From IMG/VR virus record IMGVR_UViG_2671180460_000002: a stretch of DNA of 36,986 nucleotides. One strand, 5' to 3'. How positions within the stretch are numbered: the first letter of the stretch is position 1; each line of letters begins with the position of its first letter. This stretch comes from a virus. Lineage: Duplodnaviria > Heunggongvirae > Uroviricota > Caudoviricetes. The notes under the pieces were generated by a model. The model searched no databases. It saw only the letters and a list, made by a program, of their open reading frames with translations, and was not told where the DNA came from. The position numbers were made by a program, and so were the translations under genes. Below are positions 412-30,883 of the stretch, piece by piece.

Positions 412-1059
412 TCATGCTGATTTTTTACTTACAGATTTTGTTTCTTGCTCCGGTGTGACATCGGTCTGATCACCCGGCGATTGTGGTCGTATATGAGATT
501 CAACAATTCGCAAAATCTCTCTGTCAGTATCTTCGTTTCCATGTAATGCTACTCGGATTGCATCCTTAAGTGATTTCCTGATATTCAGACTTTGGATAGC
601 ATTCTCTTGCTCCTCCAGCGTGTTAGCGGCTTGTTTCGCTTGCCTAGTGGGTTGTTGCAGACGTTTTAGGATTCCTTTGATACCCATATCACATATTGCA
701 TTTATCAATAGTTCTTTATCTTCTGTGGACGCTCTTTTCAATAACTCGTTAGCTAGCTCGTTTGTAATATCGGGAGAAGGCTGCGCTGTTTGGTTTGATA
801 AAGAGTTTGCTGTGGCGGTGAGTTCCTCACCATAAGCGAGCCAATTTAAACTTACCTGCTCTTTATCTGAGATAAGGCAGGCTATTTTAAAAGAGGGTTC
901 TGTTCCTTTATGGATGTAGTTGTTTAAGGTTGAAGGAGGGATACCCCAGTCGCTCGCGGCAGTTCTGACACTGCGCCCACCTATTAGTTTTACTAAACGC
1001 TCTCTAAAACTTTCTTTTCCTCGGTCAACTAAAGAAAAAGCGTCATCATTTTTTGTCAT
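412..1059 (-). CDS. prophage repressor (Mu c-like position), HTH DNA-binding protein
   Basis: Leftward ORF at the left end, divergent from ner. ATG at 1059 is preceded by AGGAAAGG; the track start at 1092 is a TTG. HTH-like segment ...RSVRTAASDWGIPPSTLNNYI... Confidence 0.6.
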   Translation of the reverse strand: MTKNDDAFSLVDRGKESFRERLVKLIGGRSVRTAASDWGIPPSTLNNYIHKGTEPSFKIACLISDKEQVSLNWLAYGEELTATANSLSNQTAQPSPDITNELANELLKRASTEDKELLINAICDMGIKGILKRLQQPTRQAKQAANTLEEQENAIQSLNIRKSLKDAIRVALHGNEDTDREILRIVESHIRPQSPGDQTDVTPEQETKSVSKKSA

Positions 1060-1192
1060 TTTTCCTTTCCTATTTAACCAATTGATTTTCAATCACAAAA
1101 CTATATAAAGACCAAAAGCAAAAAGAAAATACAAAGAAAAGGCTATTTTTGCTTTACATGGGTTACATATGGATCAATACTTATATCCGAAG

Positions 1193-1241: not shown

Positions 1242-1478
1242 ATGATGGTTAGAAATGAAGTAATGAACCTGGACTGGCACCGCGAGTACATTGTCGCAGC
1301 TGTGCACACCAAAGGTTTTACATTGCGTGAACTGTCTGTTCGCGCTGGTCTAAAAAAAGACTCTTTAAAAAATGCATTGTATCGCTCATGCCCTAAATAT
1401 GAACGCATCATAGCCGATGCTATTGGTGTGGAACCTGCGGAGATCTGGCCAAGCCGGTATGCCAGTAAGGCGGCATAA
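1242..1478 (+). CDS. ner: Ner-like DNA-binding regulator
   Basis: Translation contains DWHREYIVAAV...IWPSRY, matching Mu Ner (DWHRADVIAG...IWPSRY). Stop overlaps the transposase start. Confidence 0.85.
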   Translation: MMVRNEVMNLDWHREYIVAAVHTKGFTLRELSVRAGLKKDSLKNALYRSCPKYERIIADAIGVEPAEIWPSRYASKAA

Positions 1479-3520
1479 TGTTTTATTCAGCCAATGAACT
1501 GGCCGGTCTTACTGGTTTGCCCGGTACAGTTCAGGGGGTGCGCTGGACGCTCAATCGGATCACAGAGACGCACCCGGAATGGAAGCGCAAGCGTGAAGGC
1601 ACCAAAGCATTCGAGTATCACATCGACTGCCTGCCCGCTGAAGCGCAGAAGGTTTTACGTAAGCGCCTGACTCATCAGGTCCTGGAAGATGCACAACTGC
1701 CCGCCGTGGTTGAGCAGAAGGCAGTTAAAAACGTCGCCGTTCGTGATGAACTGGAAGTGATGGTCAAATGCCCGGAACTGGCATTACGCGAAGTTCAGGC
1801 ACTGACCGACAAGCAAAAGGCCATCGCTGATGCGCGGATATTGCTGGCTACCGAAGTGCATAAACTGCGTGAATACGCAAGAATGTCCAGGACGGCAGCG
1901 ATAAAACACATTGTTGATGGTATCCGCCAGGAGGCTTTGCCCGAGCGCGTTATTGTGGCAGGTAATACCGCCAATGCCCGACAGGGTAAGCGAACTGGCG
2001 TCAGTACAGGGAGTTTACAGGAATGGTATTCCGCCTGGCTGATGGCGCGCGGTGATGCCAATCAGTTACTGGCGTTACTGGCTCCCGGTCATCATAAGGG
2101 AACACCGTGGGAGCAGGTTTGGTGGTTGAGCGATTTCTTTATGTTCTATCGCTCATGGAAGCGCCCGACCGTTGAATATGCGTATCGCGAGTTTTCAGCC
2201 TGGTGGCATGAAAAACACGCGAACGATGCGGGAATGCTGGCGGCACTGCCTTCAGTTCACGCAGTAAGACGGGTGTTAAGCAGCGTCCCGGTGATTGTTA
2301 AAGAGCGTTTCCGCTCCACCGGTTCAGCCTGGCGTTCGCTCAATCCCTTTGTGCGACGCGACTGGAGCACATTACCGGTTAATGCGGTATGGGTCGGGGA
2401 TGGTCACTGTATGAAAATGACCGCGTTTAACCCCCTGACCGGCAATATTTTCCGGCCAGAAGTGACGCTGGTTATGGATGCGGGGCAGCGCTTTGTTGTG
2501 GGCTGGTCGCTGTCCCTGTCGGAGAACGTGATAGCCGTTGCTGATGCGTTACGTTACGGCATGGCGCAGCACGGGATACCGCTGATTTATTACTCCGATA
2601 ACGGGGGCGGCGAAAAAAACCGGGTACTTGATGCCGATATTACCGGGATTCTGCCCCGTCTGGGTGTGGAACATCACACGGGGATACCAGGTAACCCACA
2701 GGGGCGCGGGGTGATTGAAAGGCTTAACAAGGAAATTCCCCGGGATGTGGCCCTGAGTTTCCGGACGTACTGCTCAAAGGGAGCAGACAAGGAAACCGTA
2801 ATGATGCAGCAACGGATTATGCAGTCAGCCATTAAGGCCACCCACAAAGGGAAAGAGCTGACAAAACGGCAGGTTAAGTCAAGGGATGAAATCCCCACCT
2901 TTGAGCAACTGATGGCAGCTATAGAGCTGGAGGTCAGACGCTATAACAACCGGCCACACAGCAGCCTTCCCCGCAAAGAGGATGGCGAATATTACAGTCC
3001 GGCAGCGTATCGCCGGAAACTGATAAAAGAACAGAATGTTGAAATTGATTTTCTGTCGCCGGAAGAGCTGCATGAAATGTTCAGACCGGAGGTGACGCGC
3101 AAAACATTTCGCGGGGAAATTCAGTTATTCAACAATATTTATTACTCGTATGAGCTGGCAGCAGAGCACGGAAATGAAGTCAGGGTTTGTTACGACATTC
3201 ACGACGCAAACAGCGTGATTGTCAGGCGGATGGACGGTTCTTATATCTGCGATGCCATCTGGAACGGTAATAAGGTTGATGCGTTCCCGAAAGCTGTTAT
3301 CGAACAGCAGCAGGAGAAACGCGCCAGAGGCCGCATTGCACGGGCCACGCAGAAAATCGAAGAGGCTAAACGCGAGCTTACCCCGGCTATTACGCAGAAG
3401 CCTGACTTTAATTTTGGATGTGGTCTGGAGCGTAAGGAGGAAAAGAAAAAAGAAGAACTTTATTTCTTTGCATCCGAGCGTGACCGCAATTTAAAGAAAG
3501 ACGGCACAAACAACCGTTAA
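1478..3520 (+). CDS. Mu-type DDE transposase (MuA-like)
   Basis: 680 aa, immediately after ner. N-terminal winged-helix-like region followed by a large catalytic core, size and position as for MuA (663 aa). Confidence 0.9.
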   Translation: MFYSANELAGLTGLPGTVQGVRWTLNRITETHPEWKRKREGTKAFEYHIDCLPAEAQKVLRKRLTHQVLEDAQLPAVVEQKAVKNVAVRDELEVMVKCPELALREVQALTDKQKAIADARILLATEVHKLREYARMSRTAAIKHIVDGIRQEALPERVIVAGNTANARQGKRTGVSTGSLQEWYSAWLMARGDANQLLALLAPGHHKGTPWEQVWWLSDFFMFYRSWKRPTVEYAYREFSAWWHEKHANDAGMLAALPSVHAVRRVLSSVPVIVKERFRSTGSAWRSLNPFVRRDWSTLPVNAVWVGDGHCMKMTAFNPLTGNIFRPEVTLVMDAGQRFVVGWSLSLSENVIAVADALRYGMAQHGIPLIYYSDNGGGEKNRVLDADITGILPRLGVEHHTGIPGNPQGRGVIERLNKEIPRDVALSFRTYCSKGADKETVMMQQRIMQSAIKATHKGKELTKRQVKSRDEIPTFEQLMAAIELEVRRYNNRPHSSLPRKEDGEYYSPAAYRRKLIKEQNVEIDFLSPEELHEMFRPEVTRKTFRGEIQLFNNIYYSYELAAEHGNEVRVCYDIHDANSVIVRRMDGSYICDAIWNGNKVDAFPKAVIEQQQEKRARGRIARATQKIEEAKRELTPAITQKPDFNFGCGLERKEEKKKEELYFFASERDRNLKKDGTNNR

Positions 3521-3537: not shown

Positions 3538-4431
3538 ATGAGTTTAATTACGCAATTAAATGACGTAATGGCCCGTCGCGGCTATACACAAACCCACGTT
3601 GCCCGTGCTATTGGTCGTAGCAGCGCCGTTATCAACCAGTATTTGCAGGGTAAATATCAGGGCGATATCACTGATATCGAAGAGCGAATTTCTGCCTTTG
3701 TCAGCCGTGAACGGGAAAAAGAAAACAACCGGCGTGTAAAAGCAAGTTTTGTGACTACAGGTATGGCCGCCAAAGGGTTGGAGGCACTGGCCTATGCTCA
3801 TCTGGAGTGTGAAATTAGCGTGTTGTATGGCGCGGCAGGTCTTGGCAAAACAATGATTTTGCGCGAATACGCCGCCAGAAACCGGGACGCAATACTGATT
3901 GAGGCTGACCCGGGCTATACAGCCAGGACACTGCTGGAGGAGTTGTGCCGCCAGTTGGGGGTAAAGGTTCGCGGCAATATTCACGAACTGATTAATGCCT
4001 GTGTACACGAATTGCGTGACTCCGGTCGCCTGCTGATGGTGGATGAAGCCGAACTGCTCCCCTATCGTGCGCTGGAAGTTCTGCGTCGTCTGCATGACAA
4101 GGCGGGCGTCGGTGTTGCCCTGGCTGGTATGCCGCGCCTGTTGATTAATCTTAAAGGCAATCGTGGGGAGTTCGCGCAGCTATACAGTCGGGTGGCTCTT
4201 TCGCTGGACCTCGGCGATACGCTGGCGCAGAAGGATTTCATCCAGATAGCCGCTGAACTGATGCCGGAAGCAGCAGCGCCTGAAATCTGTGAAGCACTTT
4301 ACACACGCTCACGGGGTAATGCCCGACGCCTGTTTAAACTTGTGCGTGGGGTCTACCGGATTTGTGATATCAGCGATGCCCCGGTCAGCGTGCAGGCTAT
4401 TGATGATTTCGCGGAAATGTTAATTCACTGA
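3538..4431 (+). CDS. MuB-like AAA+ ATPase, transposition target DNA activator
   Basis: 297 aa with Walker A GAAGLGKT and N-terminal HTH-like segment; directly downstream of the transposase as in Mu. Confidence 0.85.
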   Translation: MSLITQLNDVMARRGYTQTHVARAIGRSSAVINQYLQGKYQGDITDIEERISAFVSREREKENNRRVKASFVTTGMAAKGLEALAYAHLECEISVLYGAAGLGKTMILREYAARNRDAILIEADPGYTARTLLEELCRQLGVKVRGNIHELINACVHELRDSGRLLMVDEAELLPYRALEVLRRLHDKAGVGVALAGMPRLLINLKGNRGEFAQLYSRVALSLDLGDTLAQKDFIQIAAELMPEAAAPEICEALYTRSRGNARRLFKLVRGVYRICDISDAPVSVQAIDDFAEMLIH

Positions 4432-24112: not shown

Positions 24113-24694
24113 ATGGTGCAGGATGTCCGCACCTATGCCGGTGAACTGGATGAAGACCCGGGCCGGATTGTTCGCAGCCTTCCGGCAGCCTGGGTGACGT
24201 TCGGCGGCATCGTGAAAACCGAACGCTATTCCACGTCACGCCGGAAATACATTACCACCGGACGCTTTGTGGTTGTGGTGGGTGATTACAACACCCGCAG
24301 CGAACAGAGCGCCAGACAGGGAGGCACCGTCCGGGATGAAGTCGGGACAAACCAGATGGTTGAATCCGTCCGTCGCCTGCTGACCGGTCAGGATTTGGGG
24401 CTGGAGATTGATTATTTCGAACCCGGGCGGGTCAGGATGCTGTTTAACACCGGCGTGGCAGAGCGGGCAATGTCCGTGTTTGCCTGTGAGTTCGATACCC
24501 GCTGGGTGGAGCACGCGCTGGAGAACGGCAAATGGCCGGAGCGTGGCGCAGAAGCGGACCGCCTCTTCAACCGCTACCACGGCAGGCTGTCAGACCCGGA
24601 TCCGGATTTACTGCGAATTGGTACGCAATACGGCGCAGATATCTGTGGTCTGGATGAATTAAGAGAGCAACAGCATGAACAAAATGAAGGTTAA
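24113..24694 (+). CDS. Mu gp37-like protein (DUF1834-type); true start probably upstream at a non-AUG codon
   Basis: First ATG is at 24113, but the frame is open upstream and reads a protein-like ITEIERALVERLRCGLGH from ATT 24059 or CTG 24056, preceded by GGGGAGG at 24043-24049. Confidence 0.5.
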   Translation: MVQDVRTYAGELDEDPGRIVRSLPAAWVTFGGIVKTERYSTSRRKYITTGRFVVVVGDYNTRSEQSARQGGTVRDEVGTNQMVESVRRLLTGQDLGLEIDYFEPGRVRMLFNTGVAERAMSVFACEFDTRWVEHALENGKWPERGAEADRLFNRYHGRLSDPDPDLLRIGTQYGADICGLDELREQQHEQNEG

Positions 24695-24917
24695 GGCGGC
24701 TCCCGGGGTGAAGTTCCCGATGGAGGATAACGCCCGGAAATACATCACCACGGAAGCGGTGACCGTTGAGAACACCGCTTATTACCGGCGCGCCGTTCAG
24801 GACGGTGACCTGATTCTGGTGAAGGATGAGCCTGAAACCACCGTGACGGCTGAACAGGACGCCGTGCAGGTAAAAGCGAAGGCGAAGAGAGAGAAACAGG
24901 TGGATTCCGATGAGTGA
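24675..24917 (+). CDS. hypothetical small protein (Mu gp38-like position)
   Basis: 80-aa ORF directly upstream of the sheath gene. Confidence 0.4.
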   Translation: MNKMKVKAAPGVKFPMEDNARKYITTEAVTVENTAYYRRAVQDGDLILVKDEPETTVTAEQDAVQVKAKAKREKQVDSDE

Positions 24918-26331
24918 AATTCAGTTTGACACCATTTCGGGCGGCATCCGTAAGCCCGGTGTGCATTTTGAGTTCAATACCCGGCTGGCCGTTAACACGC
25001 TGCCGGGTAATGAACAGCGTGTTCTGGTGATTGGCCCGATGCTGTCAGGCGGCACCGCCACGCCCCTGAATGCCGTTTCCGTGTATTCCGAAGACGAAGC
25101 GGATGTGTATTTCGGGGCCGGTTCGCTGGCAGCTGCAATGGCGCGCGCGGCCATTAATGCCAACAGCTATCTGCAACTGGATGTTATCGGTATTGCAGAC
25201 AGTGGCGCAGGAAAGGCAGCAACCGGCGCGGTTACCGTCAGTGGTACAGCAATCAGCAGCGGCACACTGTCGGTATGGGTTGCCGGTGAGCAGGTCACGG
25301 TGGATGTGGAAACTGGTGATGAACCGTCGAAAATCATTCCGGCACTGGTGGAAGCAATGGCGCAGACGCCCTCGCTTCTGGTGACGGGGGAATACAAATC
25401 AGAAACCTCTCAGCTGACGGTGACCACCCGGACCAAAGGTGCCTGGGGGAATGATATCACCCTGTCAGCGTCCACCACGGCAGGTGGTCTGACCGTGAGC
25501 GCCACGCCGATGGCGAACGGCGAAATGGACCCGGATATTCAGCCCGCACTGGATGCGGTCTTTGCCGCCGGTCACAACATTCTGATTTGTCCGTTCAGTA
25601 CCACGCCAGCCCTTGCCGCCCTGAAGCAGCATCTGGAGAAAACCGGGAACGCGATGGAACAGCGCGGCGCGATTGGCTGTGCAGGCTGGACGGGCAGTCT
25701 CGGAAACGGGATCACCCTGGCAGCCGGTGTGAACAGTGGGCGCGTGTCCGTCCCCTGGTATCGCGGCTCCGTGAAGCTGCCAGCGGTGCTGGCTGCCATC
25801 TACGGCGCTGTGATGGCGGGCGAGGAAGACCCGGCGCGTCCGCTGAACTCGCTGGCGCTGTCCGGGCTGGATGTGGTCGCCATGTCACAGCGTGAAAGCC
25901 GTAACGAGCAGGAAAACGCCCTGCATAACGGCCTCACTCCGGTTGAGGTTGGTCCGGGTAACACGGTGCAGATTGTGCGTGCGGTCAGTACGTACACGGT
26001 TAACGCACAGGGCGTGACTGACGTCTCGTTACTGGATATCACGTCCATCAGAACGCTGGACTACACCCGCAAGGCGTGCCGCGAACGCATCAGCCTTCGC
26101 TTCCCGCGCGAAAAACTCAGCACCCGCACTATCGCAAAAGTGGAAAGCGAACTGTATGACGTGCTGATCAAGCTGGAGGAAGCGGAAATTCTGGAGAACG
26201 TGGAAGCGAACAAGGCAAAGCTGCGCGTTCAGCGAAACGGGAAAGATGCAAACCGTCTCGACTGCGTGGTTCCGGCGGATGTGGTTAACGGCCTGCATGT
26301 GTTTGCCGGTCGCATCGACATGATTTTGTAA
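24910..26331 (+). CDS. tail sheath protein (Mu L-like)
   Basis: 473 aa, AGGTGG RBS, followed by the tube gene; typical myovirus sheath size and position. Confidence 0.9.
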   Translation: MSEIQFDTISGGIRKPGVHFEFNTRLAVNTLPGNEQRVLVIGPMLSGGTATPLNAVSVYSEDEADVYFGAGSLAAAMARAAINANSYLQLDVIGIADSGAGKAATGAVTVSGTAISSGTLSVWVAGEQVTVDVETGDEPSKIIPALVEAMAQTPSLLVTGEYKSETSQLTVTTRTKGAWGNDITLSASTTAGGLTVSATPMANGEMDPDIQPALDAVFAAGHNILICPFSTTPALAALKQHLEKTGNAMEQRGAIGCAGWTGSLGNGITLAAGVNSGRVSVPWYRGSVKLPAVLAAIYGAVMAGEEDPARPLNSLALSGLDVVAMSQRESRNEQENALHNGLTPVEVGPGNTVQIVRAVSTYTVNAQGVTDVSLLDITSIRTLDYTRKACRERISLRFPREKLSTRTIAKVESELYDVLIKLEEAEILENVEANKAKLRVQRNGKDANRLDCVVPADVVNGLHVFAGRIDMIL

Positions 26332-26343
26332 GGAGCGCGGTAA

Positions 26344-26718
26344 ATGTCTCTGCATGAATACATTGGCTCGATTGTGCTGGAGGTGGACAGCCAGGAAATC
26401 GAGATCACCGACCTTGATGTTCAGATCAACACCGGGCGAAAACTGGTCAAGACCATGAACAAAACCGGCAGGGCCAAAGGCTTTGCCCGGGGCATTGGCA
26501 CCTATGAACTGTCCGTTTCGGCGGTGATCCCTGATACCAACGAGCCGGACTGGGAAAACCTTGAAGGTGTGAAAATCTCGTTGTACCCGCCCAGTAAAAG
26601 CGGTAAACGCACCTCTTATCTGGACTGCTTCACAACCGAAGTGGGTGAGAAATACACCGTCGATAATGAAGCGAAAATTGATATCAAACTGGCTGCACTC
26701 AGGAAGGTGACAGGATGA
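26344..26718 (+). CDS. tail tube protein (Mu M-like)
   Basis: 124 aa immediately after sheath; AAGGAG RBS. Confidence 0.75.
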   Translation: MSLHEYIGSIVLEVDSQEIEITDLDVQINTGRKLVKTMNKTGRAKGFARGIGTYELSVSAVIPDTNEPDWENLEGVKISLYPPSKSGKRTSYLDCFTTEVGEKYTVDNEAKIDIKLAALRKVTG

Positions 26719-27098
26719 CGATGATTAATACACAGACCGGCGAACTGTCTGATGGCGTGGTGTTTAACGGCACCGTTCATAAAAACTTTGAGCTGCGTCT
26801 GCCGGTCATGCGTGATAACGGACAGGCACTGGAAGAAACCGAAGAACGCTTTCAGACGGTGGATGGCTTCGCGGCGGATTATTACTACCGCTGTGCGGTG
26901 ATGGCGGCAACGCTGGTCCGTCTGGGGGATATTCCGCAGGAAGAACTGACGGCGGAGCTGTTGCACGACAACATGACGCCGGACGATTTTAATATTCTGC
27001 TGGCATCACGCAACGTCCTGAAGGTAAAGCGGAGCGGCGGGAATCCCGGATCGCCGGACTCCGGCTCGCAGTCCTCATCCTCGGGCGCTACGGAATAA
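26715..27098 (+). CDS. tail assembly chaperone (upstream frame)
   Basis: Located between tube and tape measure; a -1 frame ORF overlaps its 3' end. Confidence 0.55.
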   Translation: MTMINTQTGELSDGVVFNGTVHKNFELRLPVMRDNGQALEETEERFQTVDGFAADYYYRCAVMAATLVRLGDIPQEELTAELLHDNMTPDDFNILLASRNVLKVKRSGGNPGSPDSGSQSSSSGATE

Positions 27099-27271
27099 CC
27101 GAAGAGCAAATCATGACCATGAGCCGTCCCGAGCTGGACGGCTGGCTTGCCGCCGTTGACAGGCTGAACGGCGGCGGCTCAGGAAGGAAGGACACTTCAC
27201 AGACCACCCGCCAGTCATTTAAATCCCTCAGAAAGAAACGCAGAAAAGGTAAGCAGAAAAATGGCCGGTAA
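26993..27271 (+). other. -1 frame extension ORF of the tail assembly chaperone (candidate programmed frameshift product)
   Basis: Frame -1 relative to 26715..27098 is open from 26993 to the TAA at 27269-27271 and overlaps the chaperone over 26993-27098; encodes a basic tail ...RKKRRKGKQKNGR. Confidence 0.4.
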
Positions 27272-29534
27272 TTTCAAAGTTGGCATGACCCTGACTGCGA
27301 AGGACGAAGCCTCGCAGGTTCTGGAAAAGGGACAAAAACAGGTTATCAAAGCCACCGAAGGTGTAACAAAGGCAACACGGAAGGCAGGCGCAGAGCAGAC
27401 GCGTACCGGGCAGGAAAGCGTTAACTGCACGAAAAAGGCGGCAAAAGAGATACAGCGTGCCGCCCGTGCCCGGGAAACGCTCGGTATTCGTGCAGAGCGT
27501 GAGATCCGGCGTGAAATTTATCAGACGGTTGCCAGTTATAACCGTCTGGCCCGCGCCGGTTTTGAATCTGCGCAGGAGCAGGAGCGCGCCATGCAGGCCA
27601 CCCGGGAAAAAGCCCGGGCACTCAAGCGCGAACTGGATGGCGTTACTCAGGCTCAGATGAAGATGGCGAAAACGCCTGTTATCCCGGAGCCAGGGCGTTT
27701 TGCGCGTGCGGCTGCATTTGGCGGGAATGCCGTGACAATAGGCGGTGGTATTGCAGCAGGTGCTGCCATTATGGCGCAGCCGGTCAAAAAGCAGATGAGC
27801 TACGAACGCCAGCTGGCAATGATGGCCAATACCGCCTTCAGTGATGGCGGGCTGGAGGGGCGCAGGGCTGGTCTTGAGCAGATGAAAAGCAGCATCCGTA
27901 ACGCGGTGACCTATGGCGGCGGTACGAAAGAAGACGCAGCCGAAACGCTGGATGCCCTGCTGAAAGATGGCGGTATTTCATTTGAAACAGCCAGTAAGTG
28001 GCTGCCTGAACTGATGAAATACGCCACGGCTTCAGGCGCATCAGCGACAGACCTGGCTAATGTGATGCTTAAGGGTAAAAAGACCTTTGGATTCAGGGAT
28101 GAAGATATTTCCACCGTTCTGAATATGGCAATTGCAGCGGGCAAAGAAGGCAGCTTTGAACTGAGCGACATGGCCCGCTGGTTATCTTCGCAACTGGGGT
28201 CAGCGTCAGCTGCGGGGATGAGAGGCAAGGATGATTTTGTCAAGATTCTGGCGCTGAATGAAGCTGCCGCCATCACGGCGGGAAGCAGTGATGAGGCCGG
28301 AAATAACGTGTTTAACCTGCTGGCTAAACTGACCAGCCACGATATTGAAACAGCGGCAAAGCGCATTGATTACAACGGTAAAGGAATTGATTTTTCCGGC
28401 ACGCTGGTTCAGGCGCGCGAACATGGGCTTGATCCGATAGATGCGCTGTCCAGCCTGATAGACAAAATCGTTGCCAGCGATAAACGCTTTCAGGAGTTGC
28501 AAAAGAAACTGGCCTCCGCCCGGGATAAAGGTGAGCAGACGGCTGTTTACGATTCGATGGCAAAACTCCTTGAAGGCTTTGGTGTCGGGAAACTGGTTGC
28601 AGACCAACAGGCGTTAAAAGCGTTGCTGGCTTACCGTAACAACCCTGAATACCGGAAAAAGGTTGAAGACGCGATTAATCAGCAGCGCACCCTGCCGGAA
28701 GGCCAGCGCGCGGGTGATGTGGATTTTAACTTCATATCCGGCCTCAATGACTTTAAAACCGAACAGGCTAAAAACACGCTTGAATTTTCACAAATGGACA
28801 GCGTGAAAAAGCTGGCGGATGCATCCGGTACTGTGGCTGATGCCATAAGCTGGGCGGGTGAAAAGTTTCCGGGACTGACCACGGCAGTGGTGGGTGCCAC
28901 GACCGCCATTGAAGCGATGACCGCAGCGGCCCTGACATGGGCCGGGATCAAAATCCTGACCGGGGGTAAACCCGATGGCAAGGCTGGCGAGGTTGTCGGT
29001 GATGTCATTGAAAACACGGTCAAAAAAGGCAAAGGATTTAAATTCCCCGGCATTGCCGGTAGCCTGCTTTCTTTCGGTGGCACCGTTACGGCACTGGCCA
29101 CCGCAACCAGCCCGGAAGAAGACGCCGCCGTCGAAGGAAGCGAAGAACGCTGGAAGCGCATCCGTGCCCGATACCCCCAGGAAATCATCGACGCTGCCCG
29201 TAAAAAATACCAGCCGTGGTGGCAGTTTGGGGAAGGCTACTCCACCGAAAACGAAGAGTGGTTGAGGCGCTGGGAGGAAGACAGGAAAAAAGCCGCAGCT
29301 GATGCCCTGCCATCACCGGCACAGGTCAACAAAGCCGCCGGAAACACAACGCCTGAATCAGCATCAAAGCAAGCCGGACGCATCACCCAGCCGGAATACC
29401 TCACGCACTGGGTACCACCTGCCAGCCCCATTAATTTCACCACACAACTGGTGCTCGATGGTCAGGTTGTGGCGGAAGCAGTGAACAAATACAACCTTCA
29501 GGACGGTAACAGAGGCACGGGAGGAACTTACTGA
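27261..29534 (+). CDS. tail tape measure protein
   Basis: 757 aa, Ala/Gly-rich with coiled-coil and hydrophobic segments; follows the chaperone pair. Confidence 0.85.
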   Translation: MAGNFKVGMTLTAKDEASQVLEKGQKQVIKATEGVTKATRKAGAEQTRTGQESVNCTKKAAKEIQRAARARETLGIRAEREIRREIYQTVASYNRLARAGFESAQEQERAMQATREKARALKRELDGVTQAQMKMAKTPVIPEPGRFARAAAFGGNAVTIGGGIAAGAAIMAQPVKKQMSYERQLAMMANTAFSDGGLEGRRAGLEQMKSSIRNAVTYGGGTKEDAAETLDALLKDGGISFETASKWLPELMKYATASGASATDLANVMLKGKKTFGFRDEDISTVLNMAIAAGKEGSFELSDMARWLSSQLGSASAAGMRGKDDFVKILALNEAAAITAGSSDEAGNNVFNLLAKLTSHDIETAAKRIDYNGKGIDFSGTLVQAREHGLDPIDALSSLIDKIVASDKRFQELQKKLASARDKGEQTAVYDSMAKLLEGFGVGKLVADQQALKALLAYRNNPEYRKKVEDAINQQRTLPEGQRAGDVDFNFISGLNDFKTEQAKNTLEFSQMDSVKKLADASGTVADAISWAGEKFPGLTTAVVGATTAIEAMTAAALTWAGIKILTGGKPDGKAGEVVGDVIENTVKKGKGFKFPGIAGSLLSFGGTVTALATATSPEEDAAVEGSEERWKRIRARYPQEIIDAARKKYQPWWQFGEGYSTENEEWLRRWEEDRKKAAADALPSPAQVNKAAGNTTPESASKQAGRITQPEYLTHWVPPASPINFTTQLVLDGQVVAEAVNKYNLQDGNRGTGGTY

Positions 29535-30883
29535 TGGGCTGGGCTGAAAACCTGCAAAACGCTTCCTTTCGTGGCGTGCAGTTTGATGTACTGAACACGG
29601 ATGAACAAATCAGCCGCGACCATACGGTCTATGAATACCCGTTTGTTGACGGGGCGGATTTGCACGACCTCGGACGCAAGGCGCGACCGTTCCGCATGAC
29701 GGCGTTCCTGTGGGGGGAGTTTTACGAATATAAACTTGAAAAGCTGATCGCCGCCCTGGATAAAGGCGGCGATGGTGAGCTGATTCACCCGGTTTACGGC
29801 TCCGTACCGTCGGTGATTGTGACCGGCTACAGCATTCGCCATGACGCAGAAAGCCCGGACAGCTGCACCATCGACATGAGTTTTCTGGAGAACCGCACCG
29901 GCAGCGCGTTGTTCAGCACCCCGTTACCGGAGCTGTTTGCACAGCAGTTATTTGAAGAACTGGATAAGTTACTGGAACAGTTAAGCGAATTATTTGACGC
30001 TGTTACGGCCCCTTTAAAGACCATTAACAGCGTGATTAAAAAAATCCAGACGGTGCGTGCCACGCTGGTGAATACCCTGCTGACGTTCAAAAGCGATTTT
30101 CTCTCATCCATCGACAATATGATGTCACTGGCCAGCGAACCCGGAAAGTTCATCGGCGGGCTGGCAGAGGTGCTGGAAATCCACACGTCAGATGTCGGGC
30201 ACGCGGTGCCGGTGCTGGAGCGTACTGATTCCGCCACCACGACCGGACTGACCGGAGAAGACAGCGTCGCCAGTTCTGCGACCGTGATGACCTGCTGGAA
30301 TGAGGTGATGGCAGATATGGATGAGCTGGTCGCGCTGCCGGTCGCACTGGTCAGCGGTGATAAAACGCCGTCTGTGGCACTTCCGCCGGATGCGTCCGTG
30401 GAAGACGTGCAGGACGTGAAAGCGGCTTATGCGGTTCTGGCAGCCTCAGAGCTGGCCAGCGTGGCGACGGCGATACTGTCAGATGAGGCCCAGTCAGAGC
30501 AGCTTATACCGGCGGATATCGGGCGACTGGTCGGGGATGTGCGCACCCGCTTACAGGCCGCCATTACGCTGTTCCGTGAACGCTATGAAGGCGAACGCGA
30601 ACGGATAACCGAAACCGCATCACCACTGGGGCTGATGTACCCGGAAATCATTCAGAGCATGAAGAACGTGGCGGCATCCGTGCAGGATGTCGGCCTGCTG
30701 GTTCTGTCACGCCGCCCACCGCTGACGCAGAAACAGGTGCAGGCGGACAGCTGTCTGCTGTTGCTGGCGTGGCAGTGGTACGGCGACTACAGCCGTGCGG
30801 CAGAGCTGCAACGTCTGAACCCGCAGCTGCGTGACCCGAACAACATAACCGCCGGGATGGTGATTAATGCCTATGCAAAATAA
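29534..30883 (+). CDS. Mu gp43/N-like protein (DNA circularisation protein family)
   Basis: N-terminus MGWAENLQNASFRGVQFDV matches the DNA_circ_N-type start; GGAGG RBS; follows tape measure. Confidence 0.75.
   Translation: MGWAENLQNASFRGVQFDVLNTDEQISRDHTVYEYPFVDGADLHDLGRKARPFRMTAFLWGEFYEYKLEKLIAALDKGGDGELIHPVYGSVPSVIVTGYSIRHDAESPDSCTIDMSFLENRTGSALFSTPLPELFAQQLFEELDKLLEQLSELFDAVTAPLKTINSVIKKIQTVRATLVNTLLTFKSDFLSSIDNMMSLASEPGKFIGGLAEVLEIHTSDVGHAVPVLERTDSATTTGLTGEDSVASSATVMTCWNEVMADMDELVALPVALVSGDKTPSVALPPDASVEDVQDVKAAYAVLAASELASVATAILSDEAQSEQLIPADIGRLVGDVRTRLQAAITLFRERYEGERERITETASPLGLMYPEIIQSMKNVAASVQDVGLLVLSRRPPLTQKQVQADSCLLLLAWQWYGDYSRAAELQRLNPQLRDPNNITAGMVINAYAK

What the first reader, a model, noticed from the sequence alone, without database searches (positions are those of the whole stretch)
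26715..27271. Probable programmed -1 frameshift in the tail assembly chaperone
The chaperone ORF (26715..27098) is overlapped over 26993-27098 by a -1 frame ORF that continues to 27271, just where the tape measure gene begins. This two-ORF arrangement between tube and tape measure is the conserved tail-chaperone frameshift layout (lambda G/GT, P2 E/E'). I could not find a canonical X XXY YYZ heptamer in the overlap, so the slip site may be atypical.
Basis: partly seen in the sequence, partly recalled or inferred. Interest (0 to 1): 0.5.

Follow-up and report, generated by a model that had tools for sequence, protein, structure and literature searches.

The report
Mu-like tail chaperone -1 frameshift
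This is the usual two-frame tail assembly chaperone gene of a Mu-like E. coli prophage, where a few ribosomes slip back one base to make a longer fusion protein; only its worn-down slip site (G_GTA_AAG rather than a perfect heptamer) is unusual.

Summary
ORF1 (26715-27098, 127 aa) is a tail assembly chaperone (PHROG 508, the family of Mu gp41). It lies between the tube gene and the tape measure gene of a complete Mu-like prophage. The -1 frame is open from 26993 to 27271. The -1 peptide upstream of the annotated ATG (27113) is conserved in distant relatives (BLASTP E 3e-9), while the frame-0 translation of the same DNA is not. Variable sites fall mostly on -1-frame third positions. One 43%-identical relative has no ATG in its -1 ORF. 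I place the slip at Lys codon AAG 27027-27029 (G_GTA_AAG, core tetramer A_AAG). All 11 distinct distant relatives whose extension lies in the -1 frame carry the canonical A_AAA_AAG at the aligned Lys-Lys, and one closer relative has G_GGA_AAG. A 22-nt invariant block, 5 nt downstream, can form a 7-bp GC hairpin (27035-27056). That is a plausible stimulator, but its stability is not statistically distinctive. The predicted product is a 185-aa G-T fusion. PGAP annotates two separate hypothetical proteins. This is a new member of a known kind, with modest interest.

The parts
26344..26718 (+). Tail tube gene, the upstream neighbour
   Evidence: PHROG 185 tail tube protein, E 7.6e-33; ORF.
26715..27098 (+). 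Chaperone ORF1 (the 'G' product, 127 aa), frame 0, stop TAA 27096-27098
   Evidence: PHROG 508 tail assembly chaperone, E 1e-40. The AF2 model has pLDDT 83.7, with residues 1-107 folded and 108-127 disordered. The best PDB fold hit is the HK97 tail assembly chaperone 2ob9. Mu FS-gp41 matches in BFVD with TMq 0.60. The Shine-Dalgarno pairing is strong, -7.8 kcal/mol.
26990..26992 (+). TAA stop in the -1 frame, the upstream limit for any productive -1 slip
   Evidence: In relatives this stop moves closer to the slip site. It lies 4 codons upstream in L003/L025 and immediately upstream in L002/L037/L038/L040.
27023..27029 (+). Proposed slip site G_GTA_AAG (degenerate heptamer). The core tetramer A_AAG is 27026-27029 and the Lys codon AAG is 27027-27029.
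   Evidence: G_GNA_AAG is invariant in all 17 distinct sequences of the clade, and synonymous positions are also fixed. Canonical A_AAA_AAG sits at the aligned Lys-Lys in L002, L037, L038, L032, L033, L040, L041, L042, L044, L045 and L046. L028 has canonical G_GGA_AAG. A_AAG is the most shift-prone tetramer in E. coli (PMC4066793).
27035..27056 (+). Possible stimulatory hairpin CGGCGGG / AAUCCCGG / (A)UCGCCG, 5 nt after the AAG codon
   Evidence: It coincides with a block that is invariant across relatives whose ORF1 is only 54-66% identical. dG is -10.9 kcal/mol in relatives and -7.5 in the window, which carries A instead of C at 27050. It is not distinctive against shuffles (z -1.5 and -0.4), and no covariation test is possible. 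This part is inferred.
27029..27271 (+). -1 frame extension (the 'T' part, 80 aa: AERRESRIAGLRLAVLILGRYGITEEQIMTMSRPELDGW...KKRRKGKQKNGR), stop TAA 27269-27271
   Evidence: Translation. The 28 residues upstream of the ATG align with the Klebsiella phage counterpart at 50% identity, E 3e-9, while the frame-0 translations give no alignment. Between the slip and the ATG, variable sites fall 17/12/8 on -1-frame positions 3/1/2.
27113..27271 (+). The 52-aa ORF that annotation pipelines call a separate hypothetical protein. It is the C-terminal part of the T extension.
   Evidence: PGAP CDS WP_000178828.1 in E. coli M8; PHROG 3114, E 9e-19. Shine-Dalgarno pairing is only -2.1 kcal/mol for ATG 27113 and 27119, weaker than the mean of random positions (-2.7) and than 16 of 17 other gene starts tested.
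27261..29534 (+). Tape measure gene, the downstream neighbour. It overlaps the end of the T frame by 11 nt.
   Evidence: PF10145 PhageMin_Tail, E 5.7e-20; ORF.

Best explanation
ORF1 and the -1 ORF are one recoded gene for the tail assembly chaperone of a Mu-like prophage. Most ribosomes translate 26715-27098 and release the 127-aa chaperone. This has a folded domain to about residue 107 and a disordered Ser/Gly/Pro-rich tail. A minority slip back one nucleotide while tRNA-Lys decodes AAG 27027-27029. The tRNA re-pairs with AAA 27026-27028. The preceding Val tRNA on GTA can re-pair only partially on GGT. Those ribosomes then read GCG (27029-27031) onward in the -1 frame to the stop at 27269-27271. 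The product is a 185-aa fusion: residues 1-105 of the chaperone joined to an 80-aa T extension with a very basic C-terminus. The GC-rich hairpin 5 nt downstream (27035-27056) probably pauses the ribosome and raises slippage on this weak motif. By analogy with lambda gpG/gpGT, the shared N-terminal domain would coat the tape measure protein and the T extension would recruit the tube protein, with the fixed low ratio set by slip efficiency. What the evidence shows: the two-frame architecture, coding constraint on the -1 frame upstream of its ATG, and slip-motif conservation with canonical heptamers in relatives. What is inferred: the exact slip codon, the stimulatory role of the hairpin, the efficiency, and the binding partners.
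For: (1) Context and family: searches give sheath-tube-chaperone-tape measure in a complete Mu-like prophage. ORF1 and Mu gp41 both match PHROG 508. Fold hits are to the HK97 chaperone and Mu FS-gp41. (2) The -1 frame is coding before its ATG. Window and Klebsiella phage -1 peptides give BLASTP E 3e-9 with 79% positives, while frame-0 peptides from the same DNA give no alignment. Variable sites are 17/12/8 on -1-frame codon positions 3/1/2, whereas frame-0 position 2 is the most variable. PHROG 2768 matches T residues 11-49, starting upstream of the ATG. (3) The 43%-identical relative L040 has no ATG or TTG in its -1 ORF. Its only GTG lies downstream of the conserved core, and no gene was called there. 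(4) Slip site: G_GNA_AAG is invariant in the clade. A_AAA_AAG occupies the aligned Lys-Lys in 11 distinct distant loci from the Klebsiella, Ralstonia, Pseudomonas and metagenomic lineages, often with the -1 stop immediately upstream. L028 has G_GGA_AAG. (5) Identity at synonymous codons rises from 51% in the ORF1 body to 94% over the 15 codons around the slip site and hairpin. (6) The folded domain ends at about residue 107, two residues after the slip codon K105. (7) A_AAG is the best -1 tetramer in E. coli, reaching 5.6% with a strong downstream stimulator (PMC4066793). That is in the range that the lambda 30:1 ratio requires (PMC5009743). (8) The ATGs of the small ORF have very weak Shine-Dalgarno pairing.
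Against: There is no protein or ribosome-profiling evidence. The window lacks a canonical heptamer. P-site re-pairing of GUA to GGU has a mismatch in the middle position. According to PMC4066793, tetramers are barely shifty without a stimulator. The proposed hairpin is not more stable than shuffled sequence (z -1.5 in relatives, -0.4 in the window). It shows no covariation because it is invariant, and that invariance could be due simply to dual coding. The window's own C-to-A change at 27050 weakens it. Within the clade both frames are invariant around the slip, so the exact slip codon rests on homology with more distant relatives. The Met at 27119 is conserved in nearly all relatives, and several relatives have TAATG or ATGA stop-start overlaps. 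Some independent or coupled translation of the short ORF therefore cannot be excluded.
Confidence: 0.8

Rival explanations
1. The -1 ORF is an independent small gene (52 aa, ATG 27113 or 27119), as annotated by PGAP and grouped in PHROG 3114. It would be translated by its own initiation, or by termination-reinitiation after the ORF1 stop, with no frameshift.
For: It is annotated this way in E. coli genomes and in the Klebsiella phage. PHROG 3114 matches from the ATG. The Met at 27119 is conserved in most relatives. The ORF1 stop lies only 15 nt upstream of ATG 27113. Several relatives have overlapping TAATG or ATGA, a classic coupling arrangement.
Against: The -1 frame is under amino-acid constraint for 28 codons upstream of the ATG, while frame 0 is not. 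L040 has no ATG in the -1 ORF at all. In L032 the conserved Met lies about 50 nt past the ORF1 stop. Shine-Dalgarno pairing is -2.1 kcal/mol, below the random mean. Slippery motifs are conserved exactly at the 5' boundary of the -1 ORF. Gene callers start ORFs at ATG by construction, so the annotation is not independent evidence.
Confidence: 0.08
2. A -1 frameshift does occur, but at another position in the overlap. Candidates are the tetramer G_GGC at 27083-27086 near the end of ORF1, or the GGC GGG AAT CCC GGA run (27036-27050).
For: G_GGC is a Z_ZZN tetramer in frame (sequence). The GGC GGG AAT CCC GG block is invariant. PRFect authors propose non-canonical G/C-rich motifs such as CCCGGAA in chaperone genes (PMC10885494). 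Within the clade the data cannot separate neighbouring positions.
Against: G_GGN tetramers were not among the efficient motifs in E. coli. TCG GGC is not conserved: relatives have TCG GAC, TCG GAA and TTG GCC. The distant relatives place canonical heptamers at the Lys codon and nowhere else, and their -1 peptides align from the Ala right after it. The folded domain ends at the Lys codon.
Confidence: 0.1
3. The overlap is a chance open frame in GC-rich DNA, or a decaying remnant, and only ORF1 is functional.
For: A 93-codon open alternative frame is not extremely improbable. There is no Pfam hit for either ORF.
Against: The -1 ORF is kept open and conserved at the amino-acid level across lineages with 30-43% ORF1 identity, from Enterobacteriaceae, Pseudomonas, Ralstonia and metagenomes. 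Homologous extensions exist in Mu and in L039/L043, in a different frame.
Confidence: 0.02

Closest known systems
Phage Mu gp41 / FS-gp41 (Mu_41 / Mu_56) tail assembly chaperone
   Same: Same protein family: both match PHROG 508, and the BFVD fold match to Mu FS-gp41 has TMq 0.60. Same position between tube (M) and tape measure (Y). Both have a short extension reached by recoding, and the extension shares a hydrophobic core resembling L-x-L-G-x-G.
   Different: Mu's extension lies in the other frame and is reached by a -2 shift, annotated as verified (PMID 15469818), at CGG GGG CGA. Here the extension is in the -1 frame and the slip is on a Lys codon. Sequence similarity is too low for tblastn at E 1e-3.
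Lambda gpG / gpGT (and P2 gpE / gpE+E')
   Same: Two overlapping ORFs between the tail tube gene and the tape measure gene. [quoted passage not shown] The close relative L028 carries lambda's heptamer G_GGA_AAG (the lambda heptamer is from my own knowledge).
   Different: There is no detectable sequence similarity, and only a weak fold match to a siphophage chaperone (HK97 2ob9, E 0.05). The window's heptamer is degenerate (G_GTA_AAG). A downstream hairpin may be needed here, whereas to my knowledge lambda needs no stimulator.
IS3-type A_AAG tetramer -1 frameshift signals
   Same: An in-frame A_AAG motif followed after 5 nt by a GC-rich structure. This is the same spacing as in IS3 (A_AAG GCCGC-pseudoknot). 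It relies on the single E. coli tRNA-Lys (anticodon UUU) pairing weakly with AAG (PMC4066793).
   Different: IS3 uses a pseudoknot. Only a simple 6-7 bp hairpin is predicted here, and a conserved second stem could not be found. The gene context is a structural-assembly chaperone, not a transposase.
dnaX-type A_AAA_AAG heptamer
   Same: The distant relatives of this chaperone (Klebsiella phage ST405-OXA48phi1.1, Ralstonia phage YO374_1, Pseudomonas prophages, L040) use exactly this heptamer at the aligned codons.
   Different: The window and its enterobacterial clade have replaced the first Lys codon with GTA, GCA or GGA, leaving only the A_AAG core. No properly spaced upstream Shine-Dalgarno-like stimulator is present (sequence).

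Membership tests
Frameshifted tail assembly chaperone (G/GT-type, Xu-Hendrix-Duda 2004) | Gene lies between the major tail/tube gene and the tape measure gene | tested here: met
   Tube 26344-26718 (PHROG 185), chaperone 26715-27098, tape measure 27261-29534 (PF10145).
Frameshifted tail assembly chaperone (G/GT-type, Xu-Hendrix-Duda 2004) | A second ORF overlaps the 3' end of the first in another frame and ends next to the tape measure start | tested here: met
   The -1 frame is open 26993-27271, overlaps ORF1 by 106 nt, and overlaps the tape measure ATG by 11 nt.
Frameshifted tail assembly chaperone (G/GT-type, Xu-Hendrix-Duda 2004) | Slippery sequence within the overlap | tested here: inconclusive
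   There is no canonical X_XXY_YYZ in the window. The degenerate G_GTA_AAG / tetramer A_AAG at 27023-27029 is conserved. Canonical A_AAA_AAG or G_GGA_AAG occupies the aligned codons in relatives.
Frameshifted tail assembly chaperone (G/GT-type, Xu-Hendrix-Duda 2004) | The arrangement and the extension are conserved in relatives, and the extension is coding upstream of any start codon | tested here: met
Frameshifted tail assembly chaperone (G/GT-type, Xu-Hendrix-Duda 2004) | A fusion protein is made at a low, fixed ratio and is required for tail assembly | not testable with these tools
   This needs a Western blot or mass spectrometry and genetics.
Frameshifted tail assembly chaperone (G/GT-type, Xu-Hendrix-Duda 2004) | The N-terminal domain has the chaperone fold | tested here: inconclusive
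   AF2 model with pLDDT 83.7. The top PDB hit is the HK97 chaperone 2ob9, but only at E 0.05 and TM 0.42-0.50. BFVD hits include annotated chaperones and Mu FS-gp41, all with E above 1e-3.
Mu gp41 family (PHROG 508) | Significant match to the family profile | tested here: met
   Window ORF1 E 1e-40; Mu gp41 E 6e-49 to the same PHROG.
Mu gp41 family (PHROG 508) | Mu-type -2 shift into the +1 frame | tested here: not met
   The +1 frame of the window has stops at 27019, 27025 and 27157. The extension lies in the -1 frame. Mu's lies in the +1 frame.
A_AAG tetramer -1 frameshift signal (IS3 type) | In-frame Z_ZZN tetramer | tested here: met
   GTA AAG at 27024-27029.
A_AAG tetramer -1 frameshift signal (IS3 type) | Downstream stimulatory structure about 5-8 nt away | tested here: inconclusive
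   A hairpin at 27035-27056 with a 5-nt spacer is invariant in the clade. Its dG is -7.5 to -10.9 kcal/mol, with z only -0.4 to -1.5. No covariation is available. No conserved pseudoknot partner was seen on inspection of the aligned sequences.

The most novel reading that the evidence does not exclude
In this enterobacterial clade the ancestral canonical heptamer (A_AAA_AAG or G_GGA_AAG) has decayed to G_GUA_AAG or G_GCA_AAG. Frameshifting would then rest on slippage of tRNA-Lys alone, compensated by an invariant GC hairpin 5 nt downstream. Together with Mu (-2) and L039/L043 (+1 frame), one homologous chaperone family would hold at least four different recoding solutions. That would make it a natural series for asking how slip sites and stimulators co-evolve while keeping the G:GT ratio.
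Probability: 0.5. Interest if true: 0.4.

Novelty: new member of a known kind. Interest (0 to 1): 0.3.

Why it matters
In practice, this gene pair is annotated in dozens of E. coli genomes as two unrelated hypothetical proteins. It should instead be annotated as one tail assembly chaperone with a ribosomal-slippage product: join(26715..27029,27029..27271) in window coordinates. Mechanistically, it is a natural example of a phage structural gene that appears to rely on a degenerate heptamer or A_AAG tetramer. That motif type is documented mainly in IS elements, and heptamer-only predictors miss it. The family offers side-by-side canonical, degenerate, -1 and -2 versions of the same recoding event. 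None of this changes the established picture of tail assembly chaperones.

Tried and rejected
(1) A scan for canonical heptamers found only G_GGG_GAT at 26924, which is unproductive because the -1 frame stops at 26990.
(2) Pfam gave no hit for ORF1 or the -1 ORF. A PDB sequence search found nothing. Rfam found nothing relevant in 26600-27400.
(3) I searched for naturally fused, in-frame homologues using the 185-aa predicted fusion. None were found. The few longer hits (P0034, P0040, P0041) are frameshifted reads of error-prone assemblies.
(4) Transcriptional slippage was rejected for the window because it has only three consecutive A. It remains conceivable for the A8 runs in L002 and L040.
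(5) An upstream Shine-Dalgarno-like stimulator was rejected. The only candidate, GAAGG at 27020-27024, abuts the slip site instead of lying about 10 nt upstream, and it is absent in L004.
(6) A pseudoknot was considered. Pairing the hairpin loop CCGG or CCCGG with downstream CCGG (27060-27063) or UCGGG (27080-27084) is possible in the window. The partners are not conserved in L003, L004 or L028, so no pseudoknot is claimed.
(7) Longer folds of the region are not more stable than shuffles.
(9) DNA-level searches of the phage collection found only two weak hits. Relatives had to be found by protein search.

Full report
**1. Observation**
ORF1 runs 26715-27098 (127 aa, stop TAA at 27096-27098). 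The frame one base back has a TAA at 26990-26992 and is then open from 26993 to a TAA at 27269-27271. It therefore overlaps ORF1 over 26993-27098. It ends 11 nt after the ATG (27261) of a 757-aa protein with a PhageMin_Tail tape measure domain. No in-frame X_XXY_YYZ heptamer lies in the overlap. The only one in ORF1 (G_GGG_GAT at 26924) precedes the -1 stop and is a dead end.

**2. Context**
The window is a complete Mu-like transposable prophage. It encodes:
- a CI-type repressor (412-1092, minus strand);
- a Mu transposase (1478-3520) and a MuB-like AAA protein (3538-4431);
- Mu Gp37 (24113-24694) and DUF2635 (24675-24917);
- sheath (24910-26331) and tube (26344-26718, PHROG 185);
- ORF1, tape measure, DNA circularisation protein (29534-30883), GpP/gp44 hub and Baseplate J.

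Near-identical prophages occur in 56 of 5,426 complete E. coli genomes. There PGAP annotates tube, ORF1 and a 52-aa ORF from ATG 27113 as three hypothetical proteins, with no slippage feature.

**3. What ORF1 is**
- ORF1 matches PHROG 508 'tail assembly chaperone' (E 1e-40). Mu gp41 matches the same PHROG (E 6e-49).
- An AlphaFold model built on 22 homologues has pLDDT 83.7. Residues 1-107 form a compact beta-hairpin plus helices, and residues 108-127 are disordered.
- The best PDB fold match is the HK97 tail assembly chaperone 2ob9, which is weak (E 0.05, prob 0.96). The BFVD list contains annotated chaperones and Mu FS-gp41 (TMq 0.60, rmsd 3.3 over 111 columns).
- Pfam and the PDB sequence search give nothing.

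**4. Is the -1 frame translated upstream of its ATG?**
This question separates a frameshift from an independent small gene. Six lines of evidence bear on it.
- *Peptide conservation.* In 30 related loci the -1 peptide before the ATG (...AERRESRLAGLRLAVLILGRYGITEEQIM...) is conserved. The Klebsiella phage ST405-OXA48phi1.1 chaperone is only 38% identical to ORF1. The 28 -1-frame residues between the proposed slip and the ATG still align with its counterpart at 50% identity and 79% positives, E 3e-9. The frame-0 translations of the same DNA give no alignment at E up to 100.
- *Codon-position pattern.* Among ten divergent clade members, the 37 variable sites between the slip and the ATG fall 17/12/8 on -1-frame positions 3/1/2. 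In frame 0, position 2 is the most variable. This is the signature of selection on the -1 frame.
- *A relative without a start codon.* L040 is 43% identical to ORF1. Its -1 ORF contains no ATG or TTG. Its single GTG lies downstream of the conserved core, and no gene was called there.
- *PHROG 2768* matches residues 11-49 of the extension, starting before the Met.
[quoted passage not shown] Random positions average -2.7, and 16 of the 17 other gene starts tested give -3.9 to -10.3.
- *No natural fusions.* No in-frame fused homologues were found in the 5.8-billion-protein collection. The apparent ones are assembly errors.

**5. Where the slip occurs**
- Frame-0 codons around 27021 are AAG GTA AAG CGG. 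In all 17 distinct clade sequences this reads G_GNA_AAG followed by CGG, or CGC in L028. N is T, C or G. L028 therefore has G_GGA_AAG, the lambda-type canonical heptamer.
- In the protein alignment the second Lys aligns with the second Lys of a Lys-Lys pair in distant relatives.
- At that pair every distant relative whose extension lies in the -1 frame has the canonical A_AAA_AAG. These are L002/L037/L038 (Klebsiella phage group), L032 (Ralstonia phage YO374_1), L033 (faecal phage), L040, and the Pseudomonas prophages L041, L042, L044, L045 and L046.
- In L002, L037, L038 and L040 the -1-frame stop lies immediately upstream of the heptamer, and in L033 and L041 it lies two codons upstream. This leaves no other place to slip.
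- In all of these relatives the -1 peptide begins with Ala right after the Lys-Lys.
- The window's site is therefore G_GTA_AAG (27023-27029). tRNA-Lys can re-pair perfectly from AAG to AAA. The preceding Val tRNA re-pairs on GGT with a mismatch in the middle position. This second point is my inference from anticodon rules.
- Functionally this is the A_AAG tetramer class. Sharma et al. found A_AAG far the best of 16 tetramers in E. coli. It gave 5.6% with the IS3 pseudoknot but was near background without a stimulator (PMC4066793).
- The predicted fusion is 185 aa: residues 1-105 plus 80 residues from 27029-27268.
- The junction falls two residues before the end of the last helix of the folded domain.

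**6. Possible stimulator**
- Identity at synonymous codons among ten divergent clade members is 51% over ORF1 columns 1-110. It is 94% over the 15 codons L-K-V-K-R-S-G-G-N-P-G-S-P-D-S and 82% over the rest of the overlap. The pairs are not independent, so the nominal P value is not meaningful.
- The fully invariant stretch GGCGGGAATCCCGGCTCGCCGG coincides with a hairpin, CGGCGGG / AAUCCCGG / CUCGCCG. It starts 5 nt after AAG, the same spacing as in IS3.
- Its dG is -10.9 kcal/mol in relatives. In the window it is -7.5, because a C-to-A change at 27050 removes the closing pair.
- Against dinucleotide shuffles it is not distinctive (z -1.5, 18 of 200 shuffles as good; for the window z -0.4). Longer folds are no better than shuffles.
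- Because the block is invariant there is no covariation to test. Dual coding alone could explain much of the invariance.
- The Pseudomonas clade has a different GC hairpin (GCCGC-N5-GCGGC, extended to 7 bp in L046) at a 3-5 nt spacing. The A8-run lineages (L002, L040) have only weak ones. This fits stronger structures accompanying some sites, but it proves nothing.
- I rate the hairpin as plausible and inferred.

**7. Mechanism and function**
Established knowledge of lambda gpG/gpGT is summarised in PMC5009743. The short form and the shared part of the long form bind the tape measure protein. The T part binds the tube subunit. Neither protein is in the virion, and the roughly 30:1 ratio set by slippage is required for assembly. 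By position, family and architecture the same logic is expected here, with the tube protein of a contractile tail as the likely T partner. This is inference; nothing here tests binding. The T extension ends in a very basic tail (KSLRKKRRKGKQKNGR), and this basic character is kept across the family.

**8. Comparison with known systems**
- The locus is homologous to Mu gp41 but does not use Mu's recoding. The Mu record annotates a verified -2 shift (PMID 15469818), and its extension lies in the +1 frame after CGG GGG CGA.
- In the window the +1 frame is closed by stops at 27019, 27025 and 27157.
- L039/L043, about 30% identical, also has its homologous extension in the +1 frame.
- The family therefore contains -1 canonical, -1 degenerate, and -2 or +1 solutions. 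This agrees with the known statement that different tailed phages use -1, -2 or +1 shifts for this gene (PMC5009743).
- Non-canonical slip motifs in chaperone genes are also already recognised (PMC10885494).

**9. Verdict**
This is a new, currently mis-annotated member of a well-known kind. Its slip site is degenerate and can now be pinned to 27023-27029. My confidence that a -1 frameshift fusion is made is about 0.85. My confidence that the slip is on AAG 27027-27029 is about 0.75. My confidence that the hairpin is a stimulator is about 0.4.

Noticed in passing
L039:1781-1949 and L043:1293-1461: A relative about 30% identical (IMG/VR and JGI copies of the same sequence) has the homologous T extension (LLALLKLGFSYTEALAMPWSEAF...) in the +1 frame, as in Mu. 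The +1 frame opens right after CTA AAA. The slip motif was not identified.
   Followed up: partly
window 27050: The window alone among 17 distinct clade sequences has A instead of C here. The change is synonymous in frame 0 (GGA for GGC). It gives Leu to Ile in the -1 frame and removes the closing G-C pair of the proposed hairpin (dG -10.9 to -7.5 kcal/mol).
   Followed up: partly
L003:3397, L004, L005, L025-L027 (TAATG); L002:3402-3405 (ATGA): In several relatives the ORF1 stop overlaps an ATG of the -1 frame (TAATG or ATGA), the classic translational-coupling arrangement. A free T peptide might therefore also be made there. The window lacks this overlap: its stop is at 27096-27098 and its ATG at 27113.
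   Followed up: partly
window 27215-27271: The T extension ends in a strongly basic tail (KSLRKKRRKGKQKNGR). Its last codons overlap the tape measure start (ATG 27261). A basic C-terminus is kept in all lineages examined, but its role is unknown.
   Followed up: no
proteins P0034, P0040, P0041: Database proteins that seem to join the chaperone or T ORF to neighbouring sequence are products of indel-ridden assemblies, not natural fusions. They could mislead automated fused-homologue tests.
   Followed up: yes
window 26924-26930: A perfect heptamer G_GGG_GAT sits in frame inside ORF1, but the -1 frame stops at 26990. Any slip there would give a truncated chaperone.
   Followed up: yes
window 1-36986: The window appears to be a whole Mu-like transposable prophage. 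It runs from the CI-type repressor (412-1092, minus strand), Mu transposase (1478-3520) and MuB-like ATPase (3538-4431) through to the baseplate and fibre genes. The prophage ends were not examined.
   Followed up: partly
L002:3301-3315, L040:1271-1283: The Klebsiella phage group and L040 have a run of eight A (CTT AAA AAA AAG). In principle this could also allow transcriptional slippage in addition to ribosomal slippage.
   Followed up: no
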